From NCBI GenBank assembly GCA_019057795.1, contig JAHLWS010000031.1:1-64000 (forward strand): DNA of 64,000 nucleotides, written 5' to 3'. This stretch comes from Promethearchaeota archaeon. Lineage in GTDB: Archaea; Asgardarchaeota; Lokiarchaeia; Sigyniarchaeales; SOKP01. Below the pieces are notes generated by a model that worked only from the letters and a program-made list of their open reading frames with translations, was not told the origin of the DNA and searched no databases. The translations under genes and the position numbers were made by a program. Below are positions 1 through 15,041 of this stretch, one piece after another. Every line of letters starts with the position of its first letter. Position 1 is the first letter of the stretch.

Positions 1-106
1 AATTGAGACGTGTAATAAGAAACAAGCTACATCTTTTGGAGGAAATTTACTTGATAAGCTAAATAAGTTGAATAAAACACAAATTTTGTCGAATGAAAAC
101 ACTTAA
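1..106 (+). CDS. 3' end of a gene running in from the left edge (IETCNKKQATSFGG...ENT*), possibly a 4Fe-4S protein C-terminus
   Basis: Open frame from position 2 to TAA at 104-106; truncated by the window edge. Confidence 0.35.
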   Translation, partial: IETCNKKQATSFGGNLLDKLNKLNKTQILSNENT

Positions 107-235
107 ATGATTTATTAGCTATTCTTTAATAAACATACTCTATTTTTTTAAAAGAATTAGCAATTGATTTTTTAATTTTAAAATCTAATTTCTATAAATT
201 GATGTTGATTTTGTTCTTATGCTAATTATTTTGAC

Positions 236-928
236 TTAAAGACCGCTCGTACTTGTAAGAAGAACCATAATATAATCGGCAACTCCTTCAATAGAGTCGG
301 AAATAGCTTCTAAAATGTCGAATATGTTTCCTATAGTAAAAATTGTAAAGAAATTTACTTTGTAGTCTGTTTCTTGAAGGCTTTTTCTTAATTTAATATT
401 TAATAGGTCCACTTCGTGTTCATATTGATTTATTAACTTAGCGTACGCTCTCACATTTTTCCTTTCTTCCACTAAATCAATCACGAGCTTATCTAAATAT
501 TGAACTGCTTCTACGGTTGTTTCTATTATTTTCAAGATAATACTTACGGTCTCTTCGCTACTTTGTTCCCAAAAACTTATTGGTATCGTAACAATTCTTC
601 GAGCAACACCAGTACTACAATTTGCTACATCATCCAATCTTTTTACTAAATGTGATAAGTTTTGTCTTATGCTGGGGTTTAATTCTCCTTTAGAGACGTC
701 TTTTTGGATTCTCCTTCTTAATTTATCTGCATCGTCTTCTAGAAGATCAACTTTTAGAAAATTTTTATTAGCTTTTTCGAGATTTTTGTCTTTTAATAAT
801 AAATTTAACCCAACTTCTAATTCTTTCACGCATTCTTGAACGATTTGCGCGTGTTGGATCGTTTTTTCCAAGACATTTAAAGCTGTTTCTCTTTTTAAAA
901 ATTCTATTAATGAACCCATTTTTATCAC
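236..928 (-). CDS. DUF47/PhoU-like phosphate transport regulator
   Basis: Two helical repeats (LEDDADKLRRRI; YEHEVDLL...LEAISDSIEGVAD); adjacent to a Pit transporter; true start may be ATG at 919. Confidence 0.85.
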   Translation of the reverse strand: MIKMGSLIEFLKRETALNVLEKTIQHAQIVQECVKELEVGLNLLLKDKNLEKANKNFLKVDLLEDDADKLRRRIQKDVSKGELNPSIRQNLSHLVKRLDDVANCSTGVARRIVTIPISFWEQSSEETVSIILKIIETTVEAVQYLDKLVIDLVEERKNVRAYAKLINQYEHEVDLLNIKLRKSLQETDYKVNFFTIFTIGNIFDILEAISDSIEGVADYIMVLLTSTSGL

Positions 929-974
929 ATTTTTTTTTTAATGCTTTATATTACAATATATTATATATATTTTA

Positions 975-2006
975 TTAGGTTAATCCAAATAAATTAAATC
1001 CAAAATAAAGAAACCCAGCAAGCGCAGCTGCAATTGGAAAAGTTAGAACCCAATATACACCCATTTTCCCTAATTCTTTATATTTTATTTCTTTTTTTTG
1101 AGATAGACTCATTCCGATAATACAAAATACAATGACATGACTATGAGATATGGGTAAACTTAATAATGTAGCGAACATAAGAATTAAGGCAGAACTTAAT
1201 TGAATAATAAGACTTTCGCTAGGACGAGAATCAATCATCTGAGAGGCTAAGTTTCTAATAACATACCGTGCAGCAATATAAATTCCAAGACAAGCGAAAA
1301 TCCCGCAAAAAAATGCAAATAATAAATATTGCTCAATATTCAAAGACCCCTTATCAAGTAATCCATAAAGAATACCTAACGCTTCACCTGAATTTGCCCC
1401 CACCCATATCTCAGCAAAAACAACAGCCATTAACAATAACCATTTGAAATATTTCTCAGATTTCTCGATCTGATTTAAACCTTTTAGGCGTGAGAGATAA
1501 GTTTTAGAAATTATTTTAAAAAGTATAAAAGTAACAATTAAACCAAATAACGGAGATAAGAACCAACTAAGAATAACATTATTTAATTTCACCCAGTTAA
1601 ACGCTGTTTCAAGATTAACACCTCCTTGTGAAAAGGAATATACGATTACAACTCCAACTATGCTTCCTATTAGAGAGTGAGTGCTGCTTAAAGGAATTCC
1701 CGCGAAACTCCCAATTACTAACCAAACTATACTACTTATTAAAACTGTTAGCAACATGAAATCTGTATATGTTAAACCCTCTCCTAATAAATCAGCACCT
1801 ACAGTTTTTGCTACAAACGCAAAGCTAAAGGAGAACATCCCAGCACCAACAGCTACACCCCCAATTAATAATGCAACCTTAAACTTTATAACTCCTGCTC
1901 CTACTAACGAAGATAAAGTTTCGTCATTAGCGCCTATAGCGAATGCGAGGGAGATTGCCAAAATAATTAAAACGATAACTAAAATTGAAGTTAGGTCGCT
2001 CACCAT
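975..2006 (-). CDS. pit: Inorganic phosphate transporter, PiT/PHO4 family
   Basis: GAND signature, PLSSTHSLIGSIVG, second GANS and PISHSH repeat; many TM helices. Confidence 0.92.
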   Translation of the reverse strand: MVSDLTSILVIVLIILAISLAFAIGANDETLSSLVGAGVIKFKVALLIGGVAVGAGMFSFSFAFVAKTVGADLLGEGLTYTDFMLLTVLISSIVWLVIGSFAGIPLSSTHSLIGSIVGVVIVYSFSQGGVNLETAFNWVKLNNVILSWFLSPLFGLIVTFILFKIISKTYLSRLKGLNQIEKSEKYFKWLLLMAVVFAEIWVGANSGEALGILYGLLDKGSLNIEQYLLFAFFCGIFACLGIYIAARYVIRNLASQMIDSRPSESLIIQLSSALILMFATLLSLPISHSHVIVFCIIGMSLSQKKEIKYKELGKMGVYWVLTFPIAAALAGFLYFGFNLFGLT

Positions 2007-2027
2007 ATCAAATCGTATTTCTATATT

Positions 2028-2690
2028 TTAATCGAAAATTAAATATTTAGTCGCTAAAAATTGAATGTACTCTGAAAAACTCTTGATGTGGTCAGCCATC
2101 ATCATTACACCTTCTATTAATTCTTTCAAGTAAAGGAAGGTCCTTGATAAATAATCCATATCATAATTATACAGACGGTTAAGAAGTTGCCACTCTTCTA
2201 ATCTCATCTTACGCCTTTCGTCTTTGATATTTTCGCAGATATCGTGAGCTTTGGTTAAATCAGAACCAATAAATTTGACTGCGTCTGTTAATTGACTTGA
2301 AATCGATTTTAATGATTTAAGTACAATCAGTATATGGCGTTTAAACTCTTCATCAGGAAATACAACTCTATAAAGGAGCATTTTGTTAGCAGAAAATTCT
2401 CCAATATTTTTAATATCGTTAATTTTAGTAAATAATTTTAGTCTATCCGCCTTTGAAAACATTAACTTAGACTTAAATATCTTAGATTCAAATGCTTTTT
2501 TGATTCGAACTTCAGTATGGGTCTCAATAACATAATTTAGGTTTTGTATGAAATTGTCAAAATCTTCCTCGACAAGAAATTCAATGCCTTCAATTAATTT
2601 CAAATTTTGTTCGTTTATGTTATCAACAAATAAGTGCGTTAATCCATCAATACTTAATTTTTTTAACTCTTTCTCACTTATCCCCTTCAT
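2028..2690 (-). CDS. Divergent DUF47/PhoU-like protein
   Basis: All-helical, with FSKADRLKLF and YLKELIEGVMMMADHI resembling DUF47 repeats; first gene of the pit cluster. Confidence 0.6.
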   Translation of the reverse strand: MKGISEKELKKLSIDGLTHLFVDNINEQNLKLIEGIEFLVEEDFDNFIQNLNYVIETHTEVRIKKAFESKIFKSKLMFSKADRLKLFTKINDIKNIGEFSANKMLLYRVVFPDEEFKRHILIVLKSLKSISSQLTDAVKFIGSDLTKAHDICENIKDERRKMRLEEWQLLNRLYNYDMDYLSRTFLYLKELIEGVMMMADHIKSFSEYIQFLATKYLIFD

Positions 2691-2873
2691 ACTGAATATA
2701 ACCCTTGAGAATTCTTAAATTTTTGATATATATAATATATATAGAATTAATAATTTCTATTGGAAATTTAATTTTACCCTTTTTTTTATTAATATCAAAA
2801 TATACTACATTGTATGTTAGAAAACTCGTAGCCTTACTTGAAATTTATATTAATTTTTTATTATCACCTTAAG

Positions 2874-3119
2874 ATGCGCAACATTCAAAAGTTCTACTTT
2901 TTTCGGTGTTATCACTGTGGTGAATGGTTTTATAGCAATAAGATATTAAAATCAAAAAAATGTTGGAAATGTAATCGGTCGTTTCAGTTTAAAAATTCAG
3001 TTAAAATCTCCAAGATGGTAACGCTCCAAGAAGCCATTAAAACTATCAAGAACCTTAAGATGAGTGTAGAAAAAGAATCTCTTTTTTATTATCTTAACCC
3101 AAAAGATAATTTTAAATGA
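2874..3119 (+). CDS. Small zinc-ribbon protein (DUF1922-like)
   Basis: CYHC...CWKC pair; ATG at 2874 preferred over TTG at 2838. Confidence 0.6.
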   Translation: MRNIQKFYFFRCYHCGEWFYSNKILKSKKCWKCNRSFQFKNSVKISKMVTLQEAIKTIKNLKMSVEKESLFYYLNPKDNFK

Positions 3120-3222
3120 AAATTAGTTTAAAAAATAAAATTATTTAAACCTCTCTTCTTCAATCTTTTTAAGGTTCTAAATAATATTATTAAATTTTTT
3201 TTAATAATTCATATACAGTGAT

Positions 3223-4686
3223 TTGGTGAATACTATGGAAACTAAAGACGAATTAAAGCTATTTGATAAGGATTTTATTAATCACTTAACTCAAGAAGCG
3301 GGAAACCAGATCGATTATTGGGATATAAGAGCAACGATAAGCAATGGAACAACTATAGATTTTACGGATCAAAAAAGTACAGAAATTTCTTCATATGAAA
3401 TTACAAATTGTGGAATAAGAACTTTTGTGAATGGAGGTTGGGGATTTTATGTGTTGAAAGATCTTAATAAAGATTTAATTAGAACAAGCTTTTTAAAATC
3501 GATTAAGCTAGCGAAATTAACAGAGTCTTTATCAAAACACAAGTTCAAAATCAAAGAAGTTGACCCTATTAATAAAAGTTTCAAAATTAAGTGTAAGAGA
3601 AAGCTGGCAGATGTAGATATTGAAGAAAAGATTCTTCTCGTAAAACATCACGAAAAGCTTGCATCAAATTATTCTAAAAAAATAAAAAACACGCATACGA
3701 TTTACATGGATGGCGTTAAGAGCTATGTTTTTATAAACTCGTTTGGTAGTTGTATTTATCAGGATCTTTCATATTTACGCTTGTTGAATATAGTTTATTC
3801 CCAGAAAGGGGGTGTGATCCAAAGATCGATTAATTCTGTCGGAGGTTTAGGGGGGTTCGAAATATTATCTACAGAGAAAGCAGAAAATTTAAGCGTTAAA
3901 ACAGCAAAAGAATCGATTAAATTATTAGAAGCAAAATCTCCAATTGGTGGAAAATTTACGATTATAGCCGATCCTAAACTTGCTGGAACCTTAATTCACG
4001 AAGCACTTGGACACGCATGTGAAGCAGATTTAGTTTTGAGCAAGGAAAGCATATTGGAAGGGAAAATTGGTCAAGAAGTGGCTGTGGGCGACATGAATGT
4101 CGTGGATGATCCCTCAATGGGACAAAGTTCTAAATTTGGATTACCATTTAAATTATTTGGGAGTTATTTTGTAGACGATGAAGGGATTCCTTCCCAAAAA
4201 ACAGTACTAATTGAAAATGGCGTGTTTAAAAATTATCTACATAACTTAGAAACCTCTTCTAGAATGAATGTACCTCCAAATGGCCATGGAAGAGCTTCAT
4301 CTAGTTCTTCTAAGCCTCAAGTTCGAATGGGATTTACTTATATAGAACCAAAAGACTGGAATGTCGATGAGATGATTCAAGACACAAAAAACGGAATTCT
4401 TTGTGAAGATTTTTTGTACGGTTATACGAATCCGACCACAGGAAACTTTCAATTTAAATGTAAATTTTCCTATAAAATTAAAAATGGGGAAAAACAGGAA
4501 TTGATGAGAGATGTTGCGTTGTCAGGTATGATTTTAGAAGTTTTAAAAAAAATTTCCGCTATTGGTGATAAAAATACATTAGGTTTTTCATCTGGAATAT
4601 GTGGTAAGGGTGGCCAGAGCGTTCATGTAAGTGATGGAGGGCCGTACATTAGGATCGACAATATAACCGTAGGTGGATTGAATTAA
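3223..4686 (+). CDS. tldD: TldD metalloprotease
   Basis: HEALGH zinc motif, DDEG, NGHGR, CGKGGQ and DGGPYIR motifs. Confidence 0.93.
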   Translation: MVNTMETKDELKLFDKDFINHLTQEAGNQIDYWDIRATISNGTTIDFTDQKSTEISSYEITNCGIRTFVNGGWGFYVLKDLNKDLIRTSFLKSIKLAKLTESLSKHKFKIKEVDPINKSFKIKCKRKLADVDIEEKILLVKHHEKLASNYSKKIKNTHTIYMDGVKSYVFINSFGSCIYQDLSYLRLLNIVYSQKGGVIQRSINSVGGLGGFEILSTEKAENLSVKTAKESIKLLEAKSPIGGKFTIIADPKLAGTLIHEALGHACEADLVLSKESILEGKIGQEVAVGDMNVVDDPSMGQSSKFGLPFKLFGSYFVDDEGIPSQKTVLIENGVFKNYLHNLETSSRMNVPPNGHGRASSSSSKPQVRMGFTYIEPKDWNVDEMIQDTKNGILCEDFLYGYTNPTTGNFQFKCKFSYKIKNGEKQELMRDVALSGMILEVLKKISAIGDKNTLGFSSGICGKGGQSVHVSDGGPYIRIDNITVGGLN

Positions 4687-6063
4687 ATGGATGATACAAT
4701 TGATATTTTTGAGCTTGCCAATTATGGGATAAAAATCGCCGAAAAAAAGGCTCCTAATTTTAAATGTGCAGAAATTTTCGTTGGCAAGAACGAATATACC
4801 AACATCGAACTCGAAGAAAATTCAATTAAATACAGTGAAATTGGAAGTGACCATGGAGTTTCGATTAGAATTTTCAATAAAAGAGGGTCTTTAGGGTTTG
4901 CGTTCACAAATAAATTAAATAAAAGAATTATAGAAAAAATTATTAAAAATGCTATAAAGATGATGAATGCAGGTACTGCCGATCCTAACTTTCAAAATTT
5001 GCCGTTAAAATATAAAACTTATCCTAATGTTAAAAAATTATACGATATCAGTATAAAAACATTAACCATCGAAGACTCAATTGAATATGTCAAAGAATTG
5101 ATTAATGTATGTAAAGACGATGACTTAGCGATTTCTCAATCTGGCGATTTTACATATAGTTGTAATATCTCCTATGTATTCAATTCAAATGATATCGAAG
5201 TGTTTGAAAAAGAGACCGTATTTTCAATTTCATCCAACATTATTGTAAAAAATAAAAGTACTGGAGAGACTTCAAATGGGTACGAATCCCAAATAAAAAG
5301 AAAACTAAAGGATATTAGCGGAATAAATACCGCGCTTGAAGCTTTAAAAAATGCGAAAAGAAATCTTAATAGAATTAAAATTAAAACCAAAAAGATGCCT
5401 GTAATATTATCTCCTAAAGGGACTATTAATCTTATTTTAAACCCAATTGCTTCCGCCATAAACGCAGAACTATTTCAATATAAACGAAGTTTTCTGGTTG
5501 ATAAGAGAGAAAAAGTTATTGGTTCTGAATATTTAACTCTTGAAGATAACGCATTGATAGATGGTGCTGTAGGATCTAGTAATTTCGATGGAGAGGGCGT
5601 CCCTTGCAAGAATAAAAAAATTATTGACAAAGGAATTTTTTTGAAATCGGGCTTATTACACAACAGTTATACAGCAGGGAAGGAAGGCGTTGAAAGCACT
5701 GGAAACGCTTCTAGAAGGGGCTTTAGTTCTGTCCCTTCTATAGGTATATCAAACTTCGTTATGCAAACTGGAACTTCTTCTATAGAGGAAATGATACAAG
5801 ATGTTAAAGAGGGAATATTCTTAAATTCTACTGGAGATTCGGCAAATATATCAACAGGGGACTTTAGTGGATTAATTTCCCAAGGTAATATAATTAAAAA
5901 TGGAGAAATAAAGCAAGCATTAAACGAAACTATGTTTGGTATAAATCTTTTGGATTTGTTTAAAAATATTGATGCCGTGTCAAAAGATTATAGAATTTAT
6001 GGATCATTTAAAGCCCCATATGTGAGAGTTAAAGACGTACAAATTATAGGATCTAAAGATTAA
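4687..6063 (+). CDS. pmbA: PmbA/TldE partner subunit
   Basis: FDGEG, STGNASR, TGDFS motifs; no HExxH; abuts tldD. Confidence 0.92.
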   Translation: MDDTIDIFELANYGIKIAEKKAPNFKCAEIFVGKNEYTNIELEENSIKYSEIGSDHGVSIRIFNKRGSLGFAFTNKLNKRIIEKIIKNAIKMMNAGTADPNFQNLPLKYKTYPNVKKLYDISIKTLTIEDSIEYVKELINVCKDDDLAISQSGDFTYSCNISYVFNSNDIEVFEKETVFSISSNIIVKNKSTGETSNGYESQIKRKLKDISGINTALEALKNAKRNLNRIKIKTKKMPVILSPKGTINLILNPIASAINAELFQYKRSFLVDKREKVIGSEYLTLEDNALIDGAVGSSNFDGEGVPCKNKKIIDKGIFLKSGLLHNSYTAGKEGVESTGNASRRGFSSVPSIGISNFVMQTGTSSIEEMIQDVKEGIFLNSTGDSANISTGDFSGLISQGNIIKNGEIKQALNETMFGINLLDLFKNIDAVSKDYRIYGSFKAPYVRVKDVQIIGSKD

Positions 6064-6118
6064 ATTATTAAGATTCAATTTATTGCTATAATTAAGATTT
6101 ATTTCATTTTTACGGTTA

Positions 6119-6634
6119 TTAAGAAGTAATATTTAATCTTAAAAATACAACATCATAAAATCTTCTAATACCTACAGAGGGGATTTCCCATAATTCCGCA
6201 ATTATTATTTGATTCGTTCCGGCTTGTGAAAAAGAAACATTAAATGCATTTGAAATCCAAACCACTCTATGTTGTAAAGTAATTGTCGACGAATTTACAA
6301 ATGAGGTTGCGTTTAATGAGGGTGATGAGCCTAGTACAGTATCGTTATTTCCCTTCAAAATTTCTATATGGAATGAAAAATCCCGATTTAAATAATTTCC
6401 AACAGAAATATAAAAAGTAATATTTTCATCAACTACTGCATTTGTAGGGTAATTTTCTGCTTTTTTGTCAGAATTCAAAATACCAAGATACCAATAACCC
6501 GGTTCAGGAGTTAATACGGCATAAATTATAAAGCCAGACACAAAAATTATACCGATAATTAAGAGAATTTTGAGAATTTTGTTAAATTCTTCATAACTGT
6601 TAAGTACTTCTTTTTTTCCCTCTTTACTAGTCAT
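6119..6634 (-). CDS. DUF1616-like membrane-anchored protein
   Basis: N-terminal TM helix then LGILNSDKKAENYPTN; ATG at 6634 overlaps the upstream stop (ATGACTAG). Confidence 0.65.
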   Translation of the reverse strand: MTSKEGKKEVLNSYEEFNKILKILLIIGIIFVSGFIIYAVLTPEPGYWYLGILNSDKKAENYPTNAVVDENITFYISVGNYLNRDFSFHIEILKGNNDTVLGSSPSLNATSFVNSSTITLQHRVVWISNAFNVSFSQAGTNQIIIAELWEIPSVGIRRFYDVVFLRLNITS

Positions 6635-7728
6635 TTTGAACATTATCTTTAAACCAAGCTATTGTTTTCAATAACCCCTCTTTTAAAGGAGTTGTAGGTT
6701 GCCAATTTAAAATTCTTTTTGCTTTTCTTAAATCAGCAGATCTTCTAACCGGATCGTCAATAGGTAAAGACTTGAATATAAATTCTGAATTAGAATTAGT
6801 CAATTCTGTTATGATTTTAGCTAATTGTAAAATAGTGTACTCCTTATCGTTACCCAAATTAATAACTTCTCCAATTGCTTCGTCTTTATAAACTATCCTT
6901 AAAATTCCTTCAACCTCATCTACAACATAAATGAAAGAGCGAGTTTGAGAGCCATCGCCAAAAATTGTTATATCTTCGTCGCTTAACGCTTGACGAATAA
7001 AGTTTGGAACAACTCTTCCAAACTCCGGCCCATATTTGATTCTTGGTCCCGAAGTGTTAAAAATTCTTACTATCTTCGTTCTGATTCCGTGTTGTAACTC
7101 ATACGCCTTGACAAAAGCTTCTCCAGCCCTTTTAGACTCATCGTAACAACTTCTGGGACCTACGGGGTATGCGCTCTTATAGGAAATCCTAATTAAGATT
7201 TACGTGCCCAAAATAGGTCTCAGATGTCGGAATTGCTTCATCGGGAGGATTACCATACACTTCCGAAGTACTTGTATAGAAAAATAACGCATAATGGGCT
7301 TTCGCAATACCTAAAGCGTTCATCGTTCCAAGAGTATTACTTTTTAGTATTGGAATTGGAAATTTTTTGAATTCAAATGGAGACGCCCTGCTAGCCATAT
7401 GCATAACAATATCAATTCTCTTAATATCGCCCACGCAAGTCCCGCTTGGATGATGAGTCAATCCAAAATAAATAGGTTTAGAAATATCGTGATTAATAAA
7501 ACGGAAATTTTCTTTTTCCATCAAATGAGAGATGTTCTCGAACCTCCCTGAAGATAAATTATCTAAACATATGCAATATGCCCTTTGTTTTACTAGAACA
7601 TCGCACACCCAAGAACCTAGGAATCCTGCGCCTCCAGTTACTAAAATAGTTTTATCTTGAAATGAAATATTATCTTTTCTTAGACGATCAATTATTTCTG
7701 TAATATCATCTTCTATATTATAAGTCAT
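6627..7728 (-). CDS. UDP-glucuronate decarboxylase-like NAD-dependent epimerase/dehydratase in two exons (7728-7200 and 7168-6627), 356 aa after removal of a 31-nt insert
   Basis: TGGAGFLGS, ASRASP, TSTSEVYG in exon 1; PVGPRSCYDESKR (YxxxK), RIFNTSGPR, GRVVPNFIRQAL, FGDGSQTRSF, NLGN, DDPVRR in exon 2; I translated exon 2 by hand and it is open from 7166 to TAG at 6627. Confidence 0.9.
7169..7199 (-). other. Putative 31-nt bulge-helix-bulge/BHL-type mRNA intron
   Basis: AUCUUAAUUAGGAUUUCCUAUAAGAGCGCAU; internal hairpin; 3-nt bulges AAA and AUA; cutting after nucleotide 2 of each bulge restores ...CAC GUA AAC CCC GUA... Confidence 0.75.
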
Positions 7729-7922
7729 TTTTATACAACGCCTTTTTATCTTTATAAAATATTTAAAAAATTATTAAATTTATTAATTTCAAATTTTAAA
7801 TAATTAGCGTAATAAAAATCATCTATGTCATTCGGTCGACAAGAATTTTTTTAATCTTTCCTTTCTCATCTACCTCTACAAAAATCCTAATTAGTTCAAA
7901 AATACTTGTTAAAAAATTAAAA

Positions 7923-8513
7923 TTAGCGTGTTTTCTGACCACAATACTGGCAGTACTTAAGTTCCAATGGATAATATTTACTACAACTAGTACATTTTTT
8001 TAAAGAATTCTTGAGAATCTGTCGTCCAAGCATTTCGAAGACATTTTCTACATTTTCTCCCGTCTTTGAAGAAACTCCAATTATTTCTCTTTGAAATTTA
8101 TATTTATTAAATACTTCTTTAGCGTCTTCATGTTTGACTTCCCTTTGGTTTTCTAAATCAATCTTAGCTTCAATCATTAATTTTGTTTTTGGAGGATTTG
8201 GAACCGAAGTAATAACCTTAATCCAATCGTGAAGATCTTCTAAGGAATCTTTATTCGTAATGTCATAAAGAAAAAGAGCTCCAGAAGCGCCCGAGATGTA
8301 AGAGGGAAATAAAAGTCGAAACTTTTTTTCTCCTGCAAAATCCCAAATGTTGAGAAGAATCTCTGTATCGTCCACTACAACCTTTTTTGTTTCGAAATCA
8401 ACCCCTATTGTCGATAAAGTTGATTTATCAAACTTTCCAGTGGCGTAGCGCCTAATGAGAGATGTTTTTCCTACATTTTTAGCACCTGCTACTATTACTT
8501 TAAATTTGATAAT
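7923..8513 (-). CDS. Rab-like small GTPase with C-terminal zinc ribbon; start codon uncertain
   Basis: G1 GAKNVGKT and G2 STIGVDF lie upstream of the listed ORF start in the same open frame (open to TAA 8538-8540); WDFAGE, AKID, SSK; CTSC/CQYC tail. Confidence 0.85.
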   Translation of the reverse strand: MIKFKVIVAGAKNVGKTSLIRRYATGKFDKSTLSTIGVDFETKKVVVDDTEILLNIWDFAGEKKFRLLFPSYISGASGALFLYDITNKDSLEDLHDWIKVITSVPNPPKTKLMIEAKIDLENQREVKHEDAKEVFNKYKFQREIIGVSSKTGENVENVFEMLGRQILKNSLKKCTSCSKYYPLELKYCQYCGQKTR

Positions 8514-8827
8514 TGTTTTTCCACCAAGTTTTTTTGATTATAATCTTATTATTGTAAATATTAAAATAAAAGTATTAATCTTTAATCATAAAAATTTTAT
8601 TACTAATTTTAATTGTTTGTTTTTTCAATTTTTAAAAAATTTCTCATGCTACTATGAAATTTTATTACAACCTTTTTAGTATTATTTGCCATAAAAAGTA
8701 TCCTTTTATTTATAGAATTCAATTTTGAATAAAAAAATGCTAAGTTTACTTACACGCGTGTATTCTTTCGCTTTTACATTAAAAATTATAAGCAATATTT
8801 TAATAGAAAAAAAAATATTGTCAAATC

Positions 8828-10135
8828 ATGGAAAATCGTTCAAATAAAAAATATATTGGGACTTTATCACAGAAAGAGTTAATGAAATTATACGCAAAGC
8901 ATGTGAGCGCACCAAAAGTTCGTTTTTTTAAAAGATTTGGGTTAGGAATCGTACCGGGAGAGAGGAAAGGAGTCAAATTTAGGACACTTGCTGGACCAAG
9001 ACCCTCTGATCCACCAATGGAACTGTTTGATTGCCACACATGTGGAGGTGTTTATAATTTAGGTCATCTAAATCCAAGAATTATTCAAGTTCTTAAGGAT
9101 GCTTTAGATGGTGGGCTAGATATCGGTGATCATCTACAATTATCAGAATGGAGAGCTATTTTGGGGAAAAAATTAGCGGAATTAATGCCTCCAGGAATAA
9201 CAAAAACCACATTTGGAGTTAGCGGTGGTGAAGCAGTTGATACTGCCATTAAATTTTCAAGGGCATATACAAAAAGGAAAGGATGTATCTCCGCAATTGG
9301 AGGATTTCACGGACATACCGGATTTGCCTTGGCAACTGGAGACCCTGGCTTTAAAGAAAATTTTCTGTGGAATCTTCCTGGTTTTGAGCAAGTTCCTTTT
9401 GGCGATGGAGACGCCTTGAAAAAAACTATTTCGGATGATGTTGCGTGTGTTATTTTAGAAACTATTCCAGCAACAGGCGGAGTATTAATCGCTCCAGAAG
9501 GTTACTTTTCAGAGGTTCGGGAACTCTGCGACGAACATGGGGTTATGATGATCATTGACGAAGTCCAAACCGGACTTGGACGAACAAGTCATTTCTGGGC
9601 GATTTATGGTGGTTTATATGAGAATGAAAAAGTTATTCCTGATTTTATGGTTTTAGGGAAAGGTATGAGCTCGGGGATTTATCCAATTTCTACTTGTAGT
9701 TACAAACCATTTATAGAGAAGTTAGTTTTTAAGGACGATCCGTTTATTCATATTTCTACAACTGGTGGCTCAGATTTAGGTTGTGCGATTGCGTGCGAGA
9801 TGTTAGACATACAGTCTGATCCCGAATTTTTAAAACATGTAAAGGAAATAGGTAATTTATTTGGTAAAGGTTTAAAAGAAATAGCGGACGAATATTCTGA
9901 ATTAATAAAAGAAGTGAGGGGAAGAGGGCTTATATGGGGGATAGAGTTTAATAGCGAAACATTTGGGCAATTAGCTATGCTCTCCATAATAAAAGAAGGC
10001 GTTTTACAAAATTACTGTGGTAATAGAAAAGATACTCTTATTATGATGCCACCATTAATCGTGAAAGAAGAAGAAATTGAAGAGATTATAGAGAGAATAG
10101 GTAAAGGTGTCCATAATCTTAAAAAATTAAGTTAA
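8828..10135 (+). CDS. Class III PLP aminotransferase (putrescine/acetylornithine-like)
   Basis: SGGEAVDTAIK, FHGHT, DEVQTGLGRT, GKGMSSG, EVRGRGL. Confidence 0.92.
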   Translation: MENRSNKKYIGTLSQKELMKLYAKHVSAPKVRFFKRFGLGIVPGERKGVKFRTLAGPRPSDPPMELFDCHTCGGVYNLGHLNPRIIQVLKDALDGGLDIGDHLQLSEWRAILGKKLAELMPPGITKTTFGVSGGEAVDTAIKFSRAYTKRKGCISAIGGFHGHTGFALATGDPGFKENFLWNLPGFEQVPFGDGDALKKTISDDVACVILETIPATGGVLIAPEGYFSEVRELCDEHGVMMIIDEVQTGLGRTSHFWAIYGGLYENEKVIPDFMVLGKGMSSGIYPISTCSYKPFIEKLVFKDDPFIHISTTGGSDLGCAIACEMLDIQSDPEFLKHVKEIGNLFGKGLKEIADEYSELIKEVRGRGLIWGIEFNSETFGQLAMLSIIKEGVLQNYCGNRKDTLIMMPPLIVKEEEIEEIIERIGKGVHNLKKLS

Positions 10136-10154
10136 TAATATTTTTTTTCTCAAT

Positions 10155-12506
10155 TTAAGAGTTACTATGATATTTAAATCTACTTAATTTATAGATTTCT
10201 TGAGCGATTTTCTTTCCAATATTCTCAACTTTCAATAAGTCACCAATTTTCGCGTTGAAGATATCTTGGAGGGATTTCAATTCTCGAAGAAGGTTTCTTG
10301 CTCTAAGCGAATTTACGCCAGGAACGCCTGCAACAATGTATTCTAATAAACGAGAAATTTCGATGGGTTTCTTCTCAAACCTTAGTTTTAATTCACCTTT
10401 AGCACTAGATTGTTCTTTTTTCGCTAATTGAAAAAGGAAAGTAGCAGTTTCAATGGAATCTTTTGTTTTGTAGATAGTAATTCCTAAATTCAAAATAATG
10501 GAAGTTATTGCACCGTAGAGTGCGTTTTGATTAATATTTGAATTAATAAAAGGGTCTTCTTCTAAAATTAAGATGGGTCTAATAAAGTTATTTTTTAAAT
10601 CGTTCAATTCGTTAAATAATCTTCCATCTTTAATAGAATCATTAAAATCTTGGGCAGATTTTCGTTCAATCCCAACTCTTTCCGACACTATGTAATCAGC
10701 CACAGCTAATTGTTTTAATTTTAAATCAACTCCCATTAAAGATAGTGTTCTAACAACCGCAGAGGCGGTTTCTCTATTGTCACAAATAATTGTAAAATTT
10801 TCGGCACCATCAATTTTTTGGATCAACCGATTTTCATTTTGATTTTTTAAATTAGCCTTATCTCTACTTTCTTTTTCTTTTTTAACGAAATTTAAGAGAC
10901 TCGATTGCCCAACGACTTTAGAGTTGGAATCATTTTCTTTTATTTTTTTTAAACTTTGTTTCATATTACGCTCCTTAGCTCTTTCTGCCCAATAGTACCC
11001 TTCATCACGAGTACCCTCAGCCATTAAAATAATAACTTTTCCTTCTTTTTTTCTACCAGTCCTCCCGCGACGTTGAATTGAACGTACAGCACTCGGAACG
11101 ACATCGTAAAAAATAACTAAATCACATTCTGCTATATCTAATCCTTCTTCGCCAACACTCGTCGCTATTAATGTATTGTAAATTCCCTTTTTAAACTCGT
11201 CAAGAAGCCTGATTTGTTCCTTTTGAGTTAAACCTTTGTCAGATGTTTTAGTCTGTTGTCCAACGAATTTATGTGCCGTTATACTTGGATCTTTTTTAAG
11301 AAATTTAACTATATTGTTAACAGAATCCCGAAAATGACAAAATACCAAAACTCTTGAATCTTTATCTCCAATTATCTGGTTATGTAGAATTTCCGCTAAT
11401 TTTTCTAGTTTAGGATGTACAACTCCTTTTATTTTGTTAACTTCAATTAACTCAATCACGCGTTTAATGTCAGGATCTCTTAGGAGTTCTTTTAATGATT
11501 TATTTGCTGTATTTTGTTTTATCTTTTCTATGTTTTTTTTCATGTAATCATCTAATGCACTCAATCCCTGAGTTTCTATTAGTTCTTCCATATAAGAAAG
11601 CCTTATAGCATTTGCAGTATATTTTTTAGCCGTAAATAATTGGAACTTCTCGTCATCAGTTCTAGATGCTGAAATTCTCCCGTTAATTACTTTATCTAGG
11701 GATAGTAAATCTTTTCTTGTAACTTTAGAGATATCTGATGTATTCAATAATTCTTTTTGCTTTAACAATTTATAAATTGTTCTTAATTTTTCTGTAATAA
11801 CTTTTTTAATTTCTAAAAACTCGCTTGGAAGCTTAACCTTAATCCACTCGTTATCGACTTTGTAAATGTAAGGTTTAATGTCTGAATCTTGATCTGTTCT
11901 AATTTCAAGATGATCGATAAATAAATTTTCTTTTATTTCATTAATCTTCCCTTCCGTTGATCCTGGACTTGCCGTAAGCCCTAATATTTGAGCATTTTTC
12001 GAGGATTCCATGTACTTTTTAGCAATAAAACAATATGCGTAATCCCCAACAGCACGATGGCATTCATCAAAAATAATTAAACTTACACTATCTATTGAAT
12101 AAAGATTTGAAATTATATCATTTTGGAGCACTTGTGGCGTCATAAAAGCGACTTTTAAGCCATCCCATAATTCTTTCCTTTTTTCTGGTGAAGTTGTTCC
12201 TGTAATTGCTTTCAAGCTTTGAGAAGGAATAACAGTTAATCCTAAGAACGATTTATAATGTTGATTAACTAATGGTTTGGTTGGAGCTAAAAATAATACT
12301 TTTGAATTGGGTTTTTCTGTTAATCTCTGTACCGCTAACATTAAACCTATAATCGTTTTTCCTAGCCCCGTAGGAATAACCACTAAACAGTTGGTGTTTA
12401 GGCAATTAATAAATATACTTTCTTGATAAGCTCGCCTTAAGACTGAATTTTCTTTAATTAATGGGTGAGATATATACTGTTCTTTTTTCGATATAGAGAT
12501 CACCAA
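10155..12506 (-). CDS. hef: Hef/FANCM-like helicase with ERCC4 nuclease and HhH domains
   Basis: PTGLGKT, DECH, TASPG, EEGLDI, QRRGRTGR; C-terminal DNRE...ERKS..DF..SI.DGRL. Confidence 0.93.
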   Translation of the reverse strand: MVISISKKEQYISHPLIKENSVLRRAYQESIFINCLNTNCLVVIPTGLGKTIIGLMLAVQRLTEKPNSKVLFLAPTKPLVNQHYKSFLGLTVIPSQSLKAITGTTSPEKRKELWDGLKVAFMTPQVLQNDIISNLYSIDSVSLIIFDECHRAVGDYAYCFIAKKYMESSKNAQILGLTASPGSTEGKINEIKENLFIDHLEIRTDQDSDIKPYIYKVDNEWIKVKLPSEFLEIKKVITEKLRTIYKLLKQKELLNTSDISKVTRKDLLSLDKVINGRISASRTDDEKFQLFTAKKYTANAIRLSYMEELIETQGLSALDDYMKKNIEKIKQNTANKSLKELLRDPDIKRVIELIEVNKIKGVVHPKLEKLAEILHNQIIGDKDSRVLVFCHFRDSVNNIVKFLKKDPSITAHKFVGQQTKTSDKGLTQKEQIRLLDEFKKGIYNTLIATSVGEEGLDIAECDLVIFYDVVPSAVRSIQRRGRTGRKKEGKVIILMAEGTRDEGYYWAERAKERNMKQSLKKIKENDSNSKVVGQSSLLNFVKKEKESRDKANLKNQNENRLIQKIDGAENFTIICDNRETASAVVRTLSLMGVDLKLKQLAVADYIVSERVGIERKSAQDFNDSIKDGRLFNELNDLKNNFIRPILILEEDPFINSNINQNALYGAITSIILNLGITIYKTKDSIETATFLFQLAKKEQSSAKGELKLRFEKKPIEISRLLEYIVAGVPGVNSLRARNLLRELKSLQDIFNAKIGDLLKVENIGKKIAQEIYKLSRFKYHSNS

Positions 12507-12643
12507 AAAATATCGTTCTAAAAGGCTTTTTACAGTTATGTTTTTAGTATATGTTTTAAAGTTACAGAGTCTATAGAATCTCTTAAATTAAATTAATAAT
12601 TAGTTAATAGATATTTTTGAATGATTCTTAATAATTACAGATA

Positions 12644-13833
12644 TTAACGGAGAAAGTCCATTATTGATTCTTGTTTTTCTAATTTTTTTAAAAATGGATT
12701 ATATACATATTTTGGAATATTATTTATTTTGACTTCAGATTTTCTGATTATAGGATGAGAGTTAATTTGTTTAGTAATCTCTTCCTGAAAACTATTAATC
12801 GTATTTCTATGAAAACCGTTAACTGCTTTAATTCTAATCAAGACAACAATATTTTGATTAGATATATTATCCTTAAGATTATCTCTTCTTTTTTGAATAC
12901 GATATTCTTCTTTTGATTCATGGAAATTATTAGGAAAATGATCATGTTGTTTTCCATATATTCCACTGCAACTTTAAAAATTTTTCCCCCAATTTCTACA
13001 TTCTCATTGTAAGAATCATATTTTAACAATCCTCCATCTCTAATCTCCAACCCAAATGCTTTTTTCAAAGTTATTGGTCTGAAATCAACACCTAAAATTT
13101 TATTCATATACATTTGCATGATTTTTTGACAGAAATAATCATTGCATTCCGGACACCATCTACTTTGATTTATTAAATATCTCACCTTTACGGACCAATT
13201 ATGATGATTGTTTCTTGTTAGATGCCCAACTTTAATATATCTCTCTGAAGGTACTTCTTCCATCATTTTCCACTCCTCTCTTGTAGTTAATAAATACCCT
13301 TTTTGATCAATCATATATTTTTTTATTGTATCATAGTCATATTTATTCTTAAGAGCACAATTAGACCCCCATATCTTCTCATATATATGATTTGATTTTT
13401 TTTCTCCAAACCTGCTGTTAAGATATGACTTACACCATTTTATGATTGTTATTTTTGACGCACCAATTTCCTTCTGAATCGAATTTATTCCCATAATTTT
13501 TTCTGGATTTCCATAATAAATTTTTTCAAACTGATCTTCGATTAGGTTTAAGAATTTTGAGTATCTATCTTGGATCTTCTTTATATTTCTATTCCAAATA
13601 TCTGAATAGATTTTATAAGCGTTTTCATGACTCGTTTCTTTCTTTAAATTTATCAAAATATACTTTCTTATTGTATTTCTATTTAAATTATATTTTCTTG
13701 CTAAAGAGCCTAAGGAAGGAATCAGATTTAAGTTAGAAGGATAATGTTTGTTTATAAGACAAATCAAATTATTACACATATCTTCAACATTTTCTTGATA
13801 TTTATCCTTCTGTTTTACATCAGATTTATCCAT
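12644..13833 (-). pseudogene. HTH + WCPEC zinc motif + Vsr/PD-(D/E)XK-like endonuclease with a 1-nt frameshift near 12957
   Basis: AVEY in one frame continues as GKQHDHFPNNFHESKEEYRIQKRRDNLK...LIRIK in the frame of ORF 12644-12841. Confidence 0.7.
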
Positions 13834-13915
13834 ATGTAATGAATTATAATTTACTATTTAATCTCATAGTGTATTAATATTTATTAATTCGCTATTTAAA
13901 ATAAGATAAATTTAG

Positions 13916-14021
13916 TGTGCAAGGAGGGATTCGAACCCCCGACCGACGTGATCTACATAAAGAATTAATGTAGATTTACACGGTGTGAGCGTGTCATCAT
14001 ACCGAGCTAGACCACTTGCAC
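13916..14021 (-). tRNA. tRNA-Val(CAC) with a 32-nt intron at position 44/45 (13945-13976)
   Basis: Acceptor GTGCAAG/CTTGCAC + A, anticodon arm ACACG-CTCACAC-CGTGT, T arm GGGGG-TTCGAAT-CCCTC; removing the intron gives variable loop AGGTC and 74 nt; CCA not encoded. Confidence 0.95.
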
Positions 14022-14045
14022 TTAATATTTAATTCAATTCCTTAA

Positions 14046-14053
14046 ATTATAAA
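14046..14053 (-). promoter_or_regulatory. TATA box of tRNA-Val
   Basis: TTTATAAT about 25 nt upstream of the tRNA 5' end. Confidence 0.55.
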
Positions 14054-14174
14054 TATTTTATCACTAAAAGATCAAATTCAAGTTTTCTTACTAAGGTCTA
14101 TTGATAAATTAACCAAAAAAGTTTTATTTTATATTACATTTCAAAATTTAATTACTATTTCTTTGGTTTATGTT

Positions 14175-14477
14175 ATGTCTTCTTTTTTAGAGTCTCGTGA
14201 ATTAAGAAAGTTGTATAAAGAAGTTCGAAAAGATATTAAGGTCGGTTTTATTTTTCTTTCCAGATACGAAAAAGCGCGCATCACAGGTGCAAGAGCACTG
14301 CAAATTTCATACGGCGCTCCTATATTAATAAATAGGCCTAAGAATTTAATAGACCCAATTAAGATAGCCTTACTTGAATTAAAATCTAAAATTTTACCCT
14401 TAACAATTCGAAGGGAGTATCCGTCAGGAGAATATCAAGATATTCCTATTAATAAATTGATTCTTAAAAAAGATTAA
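14175..14477 (+). CDS. rpoK: RNA polymerase subunit K (Rpo6)
   Basis: LSRYEKARITGARALQISYGAP...DPIKIALLELKSKILPLTIRR. Confidence 0.95.
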   Translation: MSSFLESRELRKLYKEVRKDIKVGFIFLSRYEKARITGARALQISYGAPILINRPKNLIDPIKIALLELKSKILPLTIRREYPSGEYQDIPINKLILKKD

Positions 14478-14534
14478 TACATTTTAGATAGTCATATGTA
14501 AAAAATGTTTTATTCGCTCTAATATCCTTTAATT

Positions 14535-14996
14535 TTATTGAATTCGGTATTTCCCTCTTTCTGTAAGAATGTATACGGTCTTTCCTTCGACTTGCTCAGT
14601 TTCCAAATAATCCTTAGAAATTAAAACTTCTATAATTTTTTCTAAATCTGCTTTTTTAAATGGTTCAATACCCAACTGTACTCTACTTTGATTAACAACA
14701 ATCGCGATGCGTGTAAGAAACATTCTTTTACTCATAAACGATTCAAGAACTGTAAGCTCGTCGTTAGAAAGGCGTTCAAATTGATCGTGTTCTAAAATTT
14801 GGTCTTTAAGAGTTTTGGCAAGCTCTATTGTTTCTTGACTTACTTCTTGTTTCTTTACTTCGACGTGTTTTAATTGCACCAAATCTTTTGCAACTGGTGT
14901 TTTCTTATTTTGAGCCATTTGCTCTAAGTAATTGCGAATTTTTTCTTTATCCCCTACTTCTCTTTTCGAATTCTTATCTTCATTTTTATTCTCCAT
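14535..14996 (-). CDS. Hypothetical protein with C-terminal winged helix
   Basis: LEKIIEVLISKDYLE...VYILTERG wHTH tail. Confidence 0.65.
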   Translation of the reverse strand: MENKNEDKNSKREVGDKEKIRNYLEQMAQNKKTPVAKDLVQLKHVEVKKQEVSQETIELAKTLKDQILEHDQFERLSNDELTVLESFMSKRMFLTRIAIVVNQSRVQLGIEPFKKADLEKIIEVLISKDYLETEQVEGKTVYILTERGKYRIQ

Positions 14997-15041
14997 AATA
15001 ATACGATAAGGAATTTAATTATAAAAACTTATATTCAATTA

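What the first reader, a model, noticed from the sequence alone, without database searches (positions are those of the whole stretch)
7160..7212. Candidate bulge-helix-bulge intron inside a protein-coding gene of an Asgard archaeon
Seen: the epimerase gene reads GGG CAC GUA A|AUCUUAAUUAGGAUUUCCUAUAAGAGCGCAU|AC CCC GUA GGU CCC AGA AGU UGU UAC. The 31-nt insert (7169-7199) has in-frame stops and shifts the frame. It folds as UCUUA/UAAGA plus UAGG/CCUA and has no target-site duplication. The junction forms a 5' bulge AAA, a central helix ACGU/GCGC (3 of 4 pairs), a 3' bulge AUA and an outer GGG/CCC helix beyond one C-C mismatch. Established: archaeal splicing endonuclease (EndA) cuts after the second nucleotide of each 3-nt bulge. 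Applying that rule blind (AA^A, AU^A) removes exactly 31 nt and gives HVNPVGPRSCYDESKR, the family motif leading into the catalytic YxxxK. Both exons are otherwise intact, and exon 2's stop overlaps the next gene's ATG, which argues against decay. Inference: this is a relaxed BHB/BHL mRNA intron spliced by EndA and RtcB. The precedent I know is the crenarchaeal cbf5 intron; I do not know of one in this gene family or in Asgard archaea. If real, other apparent pseudogenes in this genome may be spliced genes.
Basis: partly seen in the sequence, partly recalled or inferred. Interest (0 to 1): 0.95.

Follow-up and report, generated by a model that had tools for sequence, protein, structure and literature searches.

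The report
tRNA-type mini-intron in Asgard sugar-enzyme gene
A 31-base insert that breaks the gene for a sugar-nucleotide enzyme (UDP-glucuronate decarboxylase-like) in an Asgard archaeon has the conserved RNA shape cut by the tRNA-splicing enzyme, so the message is very probably spliced, which in print is confirmed in archaea only for the cbf5 coding sequence.

Summary
On the minus strand, a 31-nt insert (7169-7199) splits a UXS-like SDR gene. Removing it gives exactly the junction found in intron-less orthologs.

The insert is not an artefact. It sits at the identical site in 11 independent Asgard (Promethearchaeota) MAGs (10 distinct 91-nt sequences). About 100 orthologs lack it precisely.

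The gene is not a pseudogene. Carriers as far apart as dS ~2.5 keep both exons intact (dN/dS 0.04), and their introns differ at only 2 of 31 bases.

The RNA structure is conserved:
- 91% of pair cells form, against 30-53% in slid registers.
- Three pairs show compensatory changes.
- The central helix is 4/4 in three relatives and 3/4 here.
- Both bulges are essentially invariant.
- The exon-exon helix and the synonymous sites next to the junction are fixed only in carriers.

The genome encodes a crenarchaeal-like catalytic EndA, a His-less paralogue and RtcB. Single-copy rpl11 and hppA carry similar inserts whose homology-fixed junctions fit the bulge rule.

Splicing itself is not shown. The only RNA contigs I could lay came from a strain that is intron-less in its DNA.

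This scan has reported the same kind of intron in many other Asgard genomes; I did not check those notes. Verdict: a new member of the cbf5-type class, of high interest.

The parts
7200..7728 (-). Exon 1 of the UXS-like extended SDR gene. It runs from ATG 7728 and carries the GxxGxxG NAD-binding motif and the TSTSEVYG motif. It ends with GUA + A, the first base of the Asn codon.
   Evidence: PF01370 profile positions 1-130. dN/dS in carriers is 0.04-0.5.
7169..7199 (-). 31-nt intron. Its first base is the third base of the 5' bulge. Then come a 5-bp stem, a 2-nt bulge, a 4-bp stem, an AUUU loop, the 3' strand of the central helix and two bases of the 3' bulge.
   Evidence: The same unit is found in 11 MAGs. 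It differs at only 2 of 31 bases between carriers whose synonymous sites differ at 72%.
6627..7168 (-). Exon 2. It starts with AC, completing the Asn codon AAC, then PVGPRSCYDESKR with the catalytic YxxxK. The stop is TAG at 6629-6627.
   Evidence: PF01370 profile positions 135-240. The junction motif aligns to human UXS1.
7199..7201 (-). 5' bulge AA^A. The predicted cut lies between 7200 and 7199.
   Evidence: The bulge is invariant in 9 of 10 distinct carrier sequences and is AA^U in one.
7202..7205 (-). Central helix, 5' strand: ACGU, in the exon.
   Evidence: Invariant in all carriers. The His codon's third base is C in 10/10 carriers against 11/71 intron-less orthologs.
7171..7174 (-). 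Central helix, 3' strand: GCGC, in the intron. It makes 3 of 4 pairs here, with an A.C mismatch.
   Evidence: Relatives have GCGU or ACGU, which give 4 of 4 pairs. Variation occurs only at the two positions where either base still pairs or the mismatch lies.
7168..7170 (-). 3' bulge AU^A. The predicted cut lies between 7169 and 7168.
   Evidence: Invariant in all 10 distinct carriers.
7175..7198 (-). Intron hairpin (h'). UCUUA (7198-7194) pairs with UAAGA (7179-7175). UAGG (7191-7188) pairs with CCUA (7183-7180). The loop is 7187-7184.
   Evidence: There are compensatory changes A:U<->G:C at the fifth pair (4 against 6 sequences) and G:C->A:U in the apical stem.
7207..7209 (-). Proximal outer helix, 5' strand: GGG. 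It pairs with CCC at 7167-7165.
   Evidence: MFE register. Columns 21-23 and 63-65 are conserved in carriers.
7213..7219 (-). Distal exon-exon helix, 5' strand: GACCUAU. It pairs with GUAGGUC at 7163-7157.
   Evidence: It is fully paired in 8 of 10 carriers but in only 4 of 71 intron-less orthologs. One change is compensatory, A:U->G:C.
7157..7167 (-). 3' strands of the outer helices, in exon 2: CCC at 7167-7165 and GUAGGUC at 7163-7157.

Best explanation
The 31 nt at 7169-7199 (minus strand) are a bulge-helix-bulge (tRNA-type) intron in the pre-mRNA of a UDP-glucuronate-decarboxylase-like SDR gene.

Proposed mechanism:
1. In the transcript, the end of exon 1 pairs with the start of exon 2 (GACCUAU/GUAGGUC and GGG/CCC), and the intron folds into a 5+4-bp hairpin.
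2. Between these lies a 4-bp central helix made of exon ACGU and intron GCGC. It makes 3 of 4 pairs here and 4 of 4 in some relatives.
3. That helix presents two 3-nt bulges, AA^A and AU^A, on opposite strands.
4. The genome's two-subunit EndA (a catalytic paralogue plus a His-less paralogue) cuts after the second base of each bulge.
5. RtcB joins the exons, restoring the Asn codon AAC and the reading frame ...GHVNPVGPRSCYDESKR.
6. The intron is probably released as a small linear or circular RNA.
7. Unspliced message would give only a 179-residue fragment without the catalytic YxxxK.

Shown here: the structure and its conservation, selection on the split gene, precise presence or absence of the insert, and the presence of the enzymes.

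Inferred: the cleavage, the ligation and the fate of the intron.
For: 1. The predicted junction GGGCACGTAA|ACCCCGTAGG is exactly the sequence of the nearest intron-less ortholog. Intron-less orthologs have a 3-nt codon where carriers have 34 nt.
2. The insert is at the identical site in 11 MAGs from different studies and is always 31 nt.
3. G000 and G004 have dS ~2.5, dN 0.10 and dN/dS 0.04 in both exons. Carrier-to-carrier pairs have dN/dS of 0.18-0.29. No carrier has a stop or frameshift in either exon.
4. The intron differs at 2 of 31 bases between those two genomes, while 72% of synonymous sites differ.
5. 90.9% of pair cells form, against 30-53% in slid registers. Three pairs have changes on both sides. 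Variation in the central helix keeps or improves pairing.
6. The exon-exon helix is fully paired in 8/10 carriers against 4/71 non-carriers. Four synonymous sites beside the junction are fixed in carriers only.
7. The fold z-score is -4.4. The composite criterion is met by 0.5-1% of null inserts.
8. Two EndA paralogues are present. One is most like crenarchaeal catalytic subunits (E 4e-34) and keeps the His; the other lacks the His. One RtcB is present. According to PMC5829648 and PMC2738675, hetero-oligomeric EndA cuts relaxed motifs and the cbf5 pre-mRNA.
9. Single-copy rpl11 and hppA in this genome are split by 28-34-nt inserts. Their homology-fixed junctions coincide with a 3-4-bp central helix flanked by two 3-nt bulges. 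rpl11 has at least 4 such positions across the genus, with hairpin changes on both strands visible by eye.
Against: There is no RNA evidence for excision. The two metatranscriptome runs I could lay hold the joined form, but the large contig sets of the same study (contigs up to 90 kb, so DNA) hold it too. That strain is therefore intron-less in its DNA.

In this genome the motif is relaxed: an A.C mismatch in the central helix and one extra unpaired C opposite the 3' bulge. [quoted passage not shown]

One carrier (G004) has a mismatch inside the 5-bp intron stem.

The carriers are related, so the covariation counts are not independent events.

My blind genome-wide structural scans showed no enrichment over controls. 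The number of such introns in this genome is therefore not established.
Confidence: 0.84

Rival explanations
1. Translational recoding. The ribosome gets past the insert without splicing, in one of two ways. It could make a +1 frameshift at AAU_UAG, which would translate about 10 extra residues between GHV and PVGPR. Or it could hop from the GUA before the insert to the GUA after it, as in T4 gene 60 or the mitochondrial byp elements.
For: An in-frame UAG lies three codons into the insert. The exon-2 frame is open from 7199, so a single +1 shift in a 5-nt window would fuse the frames in all carriers. Matched GUA codons flank the insert. A hairpin follows the would-be take-off site.
Against: Both routes destroy the invariant NP of the HVNPxGPR motif, which all ~100 intron-less orthologs and human UXS1 keep.

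The insert evolves as a structure, not a peptide: paired positions change together, and the would-be peptide differs between carriers.

Exon-exon pairing that encloses the insert, fixed only in carriers, has no role in frameshifting or hopping. It is what a BHB needs.

The GUA..GUA pair is present in intron-less genes too, because it is just Val-Asn-Pro-Val.
Confidence: 0.05
2. Dead gene. The insert is a small insertion (mobile or replication-slippage product) that inactivated the gene, and the carriers hold pseudogenes.
For: The insert shifts the frame and brings a stop. Its patchy distribution on the gene tree could look like repeated insertion. dN/dS among close carriers (0.18-0.29) is somewhat higher than among close non-carriers (0.12-0.16).
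Against: Both exons stay open, with dN/dS 0.04 across a saturated synonymous distance, and about 0.2 among close carriers. That is far below 1.

The insert itself is far better conserved than synonymous sites.

There is no second copy of the insert in the genome and no target-site duplication.

The same kind of insert sits in single-copy rpl11, which cannot be dead.
Confidence: 0.03
3. It is excised from the RNA, but not by EndA. Some other nuclease or ligase, or a structure-specific RNase, removes the hairpin. Alternatively the element mainly serves regulation, with only a fraction of messages spliced.
For: Cleavage was not observed. The 3' site departs from a pure 3-nt bulge. The function of the conserved distal helix is inferred only.
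Against: The geometry matches what EndA measures: two 3-nt bulges, 4 bp apart, on opposite strands, with cuts after the second base giving the exact junction. The same rule fits three other homology-fixed inserts in this genome. No other archaeal machinery is known, from established knowledge, to excise such inserts precisely. Regulated or partial splicing is not excluded and is compatible with the main explanation.
Confidence: 0.06

Closest known systems
cbf5 pre-mRNA intron of Crenarchaeota (Desulfurococcales, Sulfolobales; Watanabe 2002 cited from memory; Yokobori et al. 2009, PMC2738675)
   Same: Both are short introns inside a protein-coding sequence.

Both have an unconventional or relaxed BHB at the exon-intron boundaries, with the cuts predicted between the second and third bulge residues.

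Both hosts have a hetero-oligomeric splicing endonuclease.

Both are present in some lineages and precisely absent in others, which reads as gain followed by repeated loss.
   Different: The gene is different (a UXS-like sugar-nucleotide enzyme, not a pseudouridine synthase), and so is the phylum (Asgard/Promethearchaeota).

This host genome carries further such inserts in other genes (rpl11, hppA), whereas PMC2738675 states that no gene other than cbf5 had confirmed pre-mRNA splicing.

Splicing of cbf5 was shown with cDNA. Here it is inferred.
Archaeal tRNA introns with hBHBh' / relaxed HBh' motifs, including the many non-canonical tRNA introns of Asgard archaea (preprint 10.64898/2026.10.13.758758)
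   Same: The structural grammar is the same: a 4-bp central helix, two 3-nt bulges, and exon and intron flanking helices.

The size range is the same (tens of nt).

The presumed enzymes are the same. The preprint reports two EndA paralogues in most Asgard genomes.
   Different: [quoted passage not shown] This visibly constrains synonymous sites and one amino-acid position in carriers. The product is an mRNA whose reading frame depends on the cut positions.
BHB element in the 5' UTR of a Haloferax volcanii mRNA (Schwarz et al. 2020, PMC7714728; title and abstract seen only, detail recalled)
   Same: An mRNA serves as a substrate of the archaeal splicing endonuclease.
   Different: That element lies in an untranslated region. 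Here the intron interrupts a codon inside a conserved catalytic-site motif.
Translational bypass elements (T4 gene 60; mitochondrial byps of Magnusiomyces) - from memory
   Same: Short (27-55 nt) hairpin-containing inserts with an early stop that interrupt otherwise intact coding sequences.
   Different: Those need matched take-off and landing codons and are skipped by the ribosome. Here that route would delete conserved residues, and the conserved exon-exon pairing points to an RNA-processing substrate instead.

Membership tests
Archaeal BHB (EndA-spliced) intron | [quoted passage not shown] | tested here: met
   The bulges are AA^A and AU^A. The central helix is ACGU/GCGC, 3 of 4 here (A.C mismatch), and 4 of 4 in WORC5, bin60 and 9R3_44. 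One extra unpaired C lies opposite the 3' bulge, so this is a relaxed form.
Archaeal BHB (EndA-spliced) intron | Cutting after the second bulge base at both sites yields the functional mature sequence | tested here: met
   The rule removes exactly 31 nt and gives the junction sequence of intron-less orthologs. It also gives the HVNPVGPR motif that aligns with human UXS1.
Archaeal BHB (EndA-spliced) intron | Flanking helices h (exon-exon) and h' (intron), supported by conservation or covariation | tested here: met
   91% of pair cells form, against 30-53% in slid registers. There are 3 compensatory pairs. The exon-exon helix is kept in carriers only.
Archaeal BHB (EndA-spliced) intron | The host encodes a splicing endonuclease able to cut relaxed motifs, and an RtcB ligase | tested here: met
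   There are two PF01974 paralogues. The C69 copy matches crenarchaeal catalytic chains and keeps the His. The C74 copy has Ser at that place. One RtcB is present. The substrate breadth of this enzyme is inferred from PMC5829648, not measured.
Archaeal BHB (EndA-spliced) intron | The intron is absent from mature RNA while present in the same organism's DNA | tested here: inconclusive
   RNA contigs of runs X15 and X17 lack the 31 nt, but so do the DNA-like contig sets X5 and X6 of the same study. That strain is intron-less in its DNA.
Archaeal BHB (EndA-spliced) intron | 2',3'-cyclic phosphate / 5'-OH ends and a ligated (often circular) intron | not testable with these tools
   This needs biochemistry or circRNA sequencing.
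UDP-glucuronate decarboxylase (UXS) branch of extended SDRs (host gene) | N-terminal GxxGxxG, a catalytic Ser/Thr and YxxxK, and full-length similarity to UXS | tested here: met
   TGGAGFLGS and TSTSE are in exon 1, and YDESK is in exon 2. The intact ortholog P0002 hits human UXS1 2b69 at E 5.6e-82 over residues 24-354. All NCBIfam dehydratase and epimerase equivalogs score below their cut-offs, so the exact substrate is not settled.
Programmed translational bypass / +1 frameshift site | The recoded product keeps the conserved protein sequence, and the element is constrained as a recoding signal | tested here: not met
   Either route loses the invariant Asn-Pro. The constraint pattern is exon-exon plus hairpin pairing.

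The most novel reading that the evidence does not exclude
This intron is one visible member of an old, lineage-wide population of EndA-spliced micro-introns (about 26-36 nt) in Asgard protein-coding genes, including essential ones such as rpl11.

These introns would persist for longer than synonymous sites take to saturate, constrain the coding sequence around them, and be lost again and again by precise deletion.

Routine mRNA splicing by the tRNA-splicing machinery would then be a normal part of gene expression in the closest archaeal relatives of eukaryotes. Many 'frameshifted pseudogenes' in their MAGs would be mis-annotated intact genes.
Probability: 0.7. Interest if true: 0.9.

Novelty: new member of a known kind. 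Interest (0 to 1): 0.78.

Why it matters
In the papers I could search, splicing of an archaeal coding sequence by the tRNA-splicing endonuclease is confirmed only for cbf5 in Crenarchaeota. PMC2738675 says so explicitly for 2009. My five searches found no report for Asgard mRNAs.

An intron of this type in a metabolic gene of an Asgard archaeon has four consequences:
- It extends mRNA splicing of this kind to the lineage nearest to eukaryotes.
- Similar inserts sit in rpl11 and hppA of the same genome, so it is not a one-gene curiosity.
- It gives a clean natural experiment in which carriers and non-carriers are interleaved on the tree. This shows how an intron constrains the exon sequence around it, and how introns are lost precisely.
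- It has a practical side: gene callers split or discard such genes, which affects metabolic reconstructions and completeness estimates for Asgard MAGs.

Tried and rejected
1. RNA evidence. I had one search and one laying. Metatranscriptome contigs of X15 and X17 skip exactly the 31 nt, but the large contig sets X5 and X6 of the same study do too. So this shows only an intron-less strain that is transcribed. It is not used as evidence either way.

2. Blind genome-wide search. I searched for BHB-shaped excisions that fuse two long open frames, with three controls: a mirror-repeat decoy, frame-offset controls and start-codon filters. Real and control counts were alike. Gene boundaries and chance open frames swamp the signal, so I give no genome-wide count.

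3. Pattern search for the intron in 42 genus genomes. The three 3-mismatch hits (G049, G052, G011) are in-frame coding sequence of an unrelated gene, so they are chance matches. The intron has no second copy in its own genome, so it is not a repeat family.

4. Indel census of window 1-20000 against five close relatives. The 31-nt insert is the only indel of 10 nt or more inside a coding region. The rest are intergenic. This method finds polymorphic introns only, and it found no others here.

5. Canonical outer-helix register (G7207-7209 with C7166-7164). Half of the carriers break its last pair. The register shifted by one fits the conservation better.

6. My first hand reading of rpl11 insert d gave a 26-nt excision that was out of frame. 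The automated check showed the right central helix to be GCAU/AUGC, giving 28 nt.

7. The composite shuffle criterion is passed by the UXS intron but not, as written, by the rpl11 and hppA inserts. Each of those has one mismatch in a flanking helix. I therefore report their features but no p-value.
Full report
**What is there**

The finding lies on the minus strand. An ORF from ATG 7728 reads a Rossmann-type N-terminus and ends ...TSETYFGHV-NLN-stop. From 7168 downward, another frame reads PVGPRSCYDESKR... to a TAG at 6629-6627.

Pfam PF01370 (NAD-dependent epimerase/dehydratase) matches profile positions 1-130 in the first piece and 135-240 in the second. The two pieces are therefore one gene, interrupted by 31 nt (7199..7169).

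Removing those 31 nt joins A (7200) to AC (7168-7167). This makes an Asn codon and the motif HVNPVGPRSCYDESKR.

An intact ortholog from a sister genome (P0002) is most similar to human UDP-glucuronate decarboxylase UXS1 (2b69, E 5.6e-82). There the same motif, HVNPIGPRACYDEGKR, aligns across the junction. NCBIfam equivalogs for dehydratases and epimerases all score below their cut-offs. I therefore call the gene UXS-like and leave the substrate open.

The 76-nt RNA around the insert folds at -26 kcal/mol (z = -4.4; 0 of 200 shuffles fold as well).

**Not an artefact, not a repeat**

The insert has no second copy in the window or the genome.

In 42 genomes of the same genus, 41 have one ortholog:
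- 5 carry a 31-nt insert at the identical site (G000, G020, G050, G051, G004).
- 35 have exactly a 3-nt Asn codon there.
- 1 has Ns.

A scan of one genome per species found 80 more orthologous loci. Their records are titled Promethearchaeota, Promethearchaeia or Loki, which supports the Asgard assignment. Nine of these loci carry the insert, six of them from genomes not seen before. The other 71 loci lack it.

That makes 11 MAGs from several studies and 10 distinct 91-nt sequences, always with 31 nt.

The nearest intron-less relative (G005) reads GGGCACGTAAACCCCGTAGG. This is the junction the bulge rule predicts.

**The split gene is alive**

I used Nei-Gojobori estimates on a codon alignment with the insert removed.
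- G000 against G004: dS ~2.5 (72% of synonymous sites differ), dN 0.10, dN/dS 0.04. The values are the same in each exon.
- Pairs of close carriers: dN/dS 0.18-0.29.
- Close non-carriers: dN/dS 0.12-0.16.
- No carrier has a stop or frameshift in either exon.

A gene that had been dead since the carriers diverged could not look like this. The insert must therefore be neutralised during expression.

**The insert is constrained as an RNA structure**

Between G000 and G004 the intron differs at 2 of 31 bases, while synonymous sites are saturated.

I aligned the 10 distinct carrier sequences (A1) and counted pairs for a BHB-type structure.
- 90.9% of cells pair, against 30-53% when the 3' partners are slid by 1-3 columns.
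- Three pairs change on both sides:
  - The fifth pair of the intron stem is A:U in 4 sequences and G:C in 6, with no intermediates.
  - An apical pair goes from G:C to A:U.
  - An exon-exon pair goes from A:U to G:C. Here a Thr-to-Ala codon change in exon 1 is matched by a synonymous Gly change in exon 2.
- The exon strand of the central helix (ACGU) is invariant.
- Its intron partner is GCGC here (3 of 4, with an A.C mismatch), but GCGU or ACGU (4 of 4) in three relatives. Variation occurs only where it keeps or improves pairing.
- The bulges are AA^A (once AA^U) and AU^A in all sequences.

The carriers are related, so these counts are not independent events. The slid-register control, which keeps relatedness, is the fairer comparison.

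**The intron constrains the exons**

This test does not depend on the intron sequence.
- The 7-bp exon-exon helix (7219-7213 with 7163-7157) is fully paired in 8 of 10 carriers, but in only 4 of 71 distinct intron-less orthologs.
- Synonymous sites next to the junction are fixed in carriers and free in the others:

| Codon | Carriers | Intron-less orthologs |
|---|---|---|
| His CAC | 10/10 | 11/71 |
| Val GTA (exon 1) | 10/10 | 31/71 |
| Asn AAC | 10/10 | 27/71 |
| Val GTA (exon 2) | 10/10 | 25/71 |

This is what is expected if half of the splicing motif is made of exon sequence.

It also corrects the outer helix. The conserved register is GGG(7209-7207):CCC(7167-7165), with C7206 unpaired. 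The 3' site is therefore a 1x3 internal loop, a relaxed form of the motif.

**Chance**

[quoted passage not shown] It defines that motif as 3 of 4 central pairs with no flanking helix.

I therefore asked for more: central >=3/4, an adjacent inner helix of >=4 bp and an outer helix of >=3 bp, at one of the four placements that give the right protein. Only 0.5% of shuffled inserts and 1% of random genomic inserts pass. The comparative evidence above is much stronger than this single-sequence test.

**The machinery**

The genome has two PF01974 genes.
- The C69 product (200 aa) is most similar to crenarchaeal catalytic chains (3p1z_B, E 4e-34). It keeps the His in the ...GPGLEHSAF... segment.
- The C74 product (201 aa) has Ser where M. 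jannaschii EndA has the His. That is what a structural subunit looks like.
- One RtcB is present.

According to PMC5829648, only the two-subunit and epsilon-type enzymes cut non-canonical introns. According to PMC2738675, the cbf5 pre-mRNA is cut by the hetero-oligomeric enzyme between the second and third bulge residues.

That this enzyme cuts this RNA is inference.

**Other split genes in the same genome**

I followed leads from first-stage notes of this scan and checked two genes myself.

*rpl11.* The only rpl11 (C73, minus strand) matches the L11 N-domain profile in two pieces. It is interrupted by a 30-nt and a 28-nt insert.

Across the genus, rpl11 has at least four insert positions. Each is present in some genomes and precisely absent in others. 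By eye, the hairpin arms change together: AAAGC/GCUUU becomes AAAAC/GUUUU, and GGAAAU/AUUUCC becomes GAAAAU/AUUUUC. I made no formal count.

*hppA.* Its invariant GDPFK-DTAGPS motif is split by a frameshifting 34-nt insert.

I fixed the junctions by protein homology and then asked which placement fits the bulge rule. In each case exactly one placement does:
- rpl11-b: central 3/4, with a 5-bp outer helix.
- rpl11-d: GCAU/AUGC, 4/4, with AA^A at both sites.
- hppA-2: CAUU/GAUG, 4/4, with 7 of 8 outer pairs.

An essential single-copy ribosomal protein gene cannot be a pseudogene. This organism must therefore remove such inserts.

**Evolution**

On a tree of 85 distinct orthologs, carriers sit at six or more separate places. 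Within the closest clade, carriers and non-carriers are interleaved; G020 with the intron is sister to G005 without it, at 100% support.

The introns are clearly homologous. The simplest reading is one old intron with many precise losses, as was proposed for cbf5 (PMC2738675). Lateral spread by recombination is not excluded. The conserved block around the intron in G004 is only about 10 nt on each side, so there is no long conversion tract.

**What is not shown**

Splicing itself is not shown. Two metatranscriptome runs hold contigs that skip exactly these 31 nt. However, the large contig sets of the same study (contigs up to 90 kb, so DNA) skip them too and share the same variant letters. That population is intron-less in its DNA, so the result says nothing about splicing.

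My blind structural scans of the genome showed no excess over controls. I therefore cannot say how many such introns the genome holds.

A 20-kb census against five close relatives found this insert as the only coding-region indel.

**Rivals**

- Recoding. A +1 frameshift at AAU_UAG, or hopping between the flanking GUA codons, is formally possible. Both would destroy the invariant Asn-Pro, and neither explains the exon-exon pairing that is fixed only in carriers.
- Dead gene. This is contradicted.
- Excision by other machinery, or partial or regulated splicing, cannot be excluded without experiments.

**Comparison with what is known, and novelty**

This works like the cbf5 pre-mRNA intron and meets every defining feature of a BHB intron that sequence can test. 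The one feature that needs RNA is open.

Five literature searches found no report of such introns in Asgard mRNAs. The library holds open-access papers only.

The scan itself has noted the same kind of intron in many other Asgard genomes, some with RNA-derived contigs. I did not check those notes, and they are not used as evidence here.

I class the finding as a new member of a known kind. Interest is high because of the lineage and because it is evidently not an isolated case.

Noticed in passing
own genome, contig C73:108,800-108,960 (minus), outside the window; loci L076-L096: Single-copy rpl11 is split by a 30-nt and a 28-nt insert around a 29-nt micro-exon. Across the genus there are at least four insert positions in the first ~45 codons. 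Each is present or absent in a patchwork, with hairpin arms that change together.
   Followed up: partly
own genome, contig C56:31,570-31,610 (minus) and about 100 nt upstream; locus L038: hppA (H+-pyrophosphatase) has a frameshifting 34-nt insert between GDPFK and DTAGPS, with a 4/4 central helix and 7 of 8 outer pairs. There is also a possible in-frame insert (DYSLFRAKSIS) before GAWDNAKK, which I did not analyse.
   Followed up: partly
window 7923-8375 (-): A 150-aa small-GTPase-like ORF (DxxGxxxF..., NKxD-like) ends in a CxxC...CxxC zinc-ribbon-like tail. Relative G051 has a 28-nt extra stretch right at its stop codon (window position 7920).
   Followed up: no
window 7730-7920: The intergenic region upstream of the UXS-like gene is highly indel-rich among close relatives, with blocks of 13-52 nt present or absent, whereas the flanking genes are 91-96% identical. 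One DNA contig of run X6 replaces 7853-7920 by 11 other letters.
   Followed up: no
L112 (DATKTW010000106.1): A contig titled 'Candidatus Nanopelagicaceae bacterium' (an actinobacterial label) encodes an ortholog 84% identical to this Asgard gene. This is probably a mis-binned or mislabelled MAG. Several near-identical relatives also carry differing Asgard class labels (Hermod-, Hod-, Odin-, Thorarchaeota).
   Followed up: no
window 37252-37329 (+): There is a weak (E 0.33) L11_N-profile hit with an internal TAA, reported by the family search. It is most likely noise.
   Followed up: no
G057:C1:34,776-35,980 (L073): The ortholog in G057 is interrupted by a run of N (a withheld or scaffold gap), so its intron state at other positions cannot be read. 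Its junction is intron-less.
   Followed up: no
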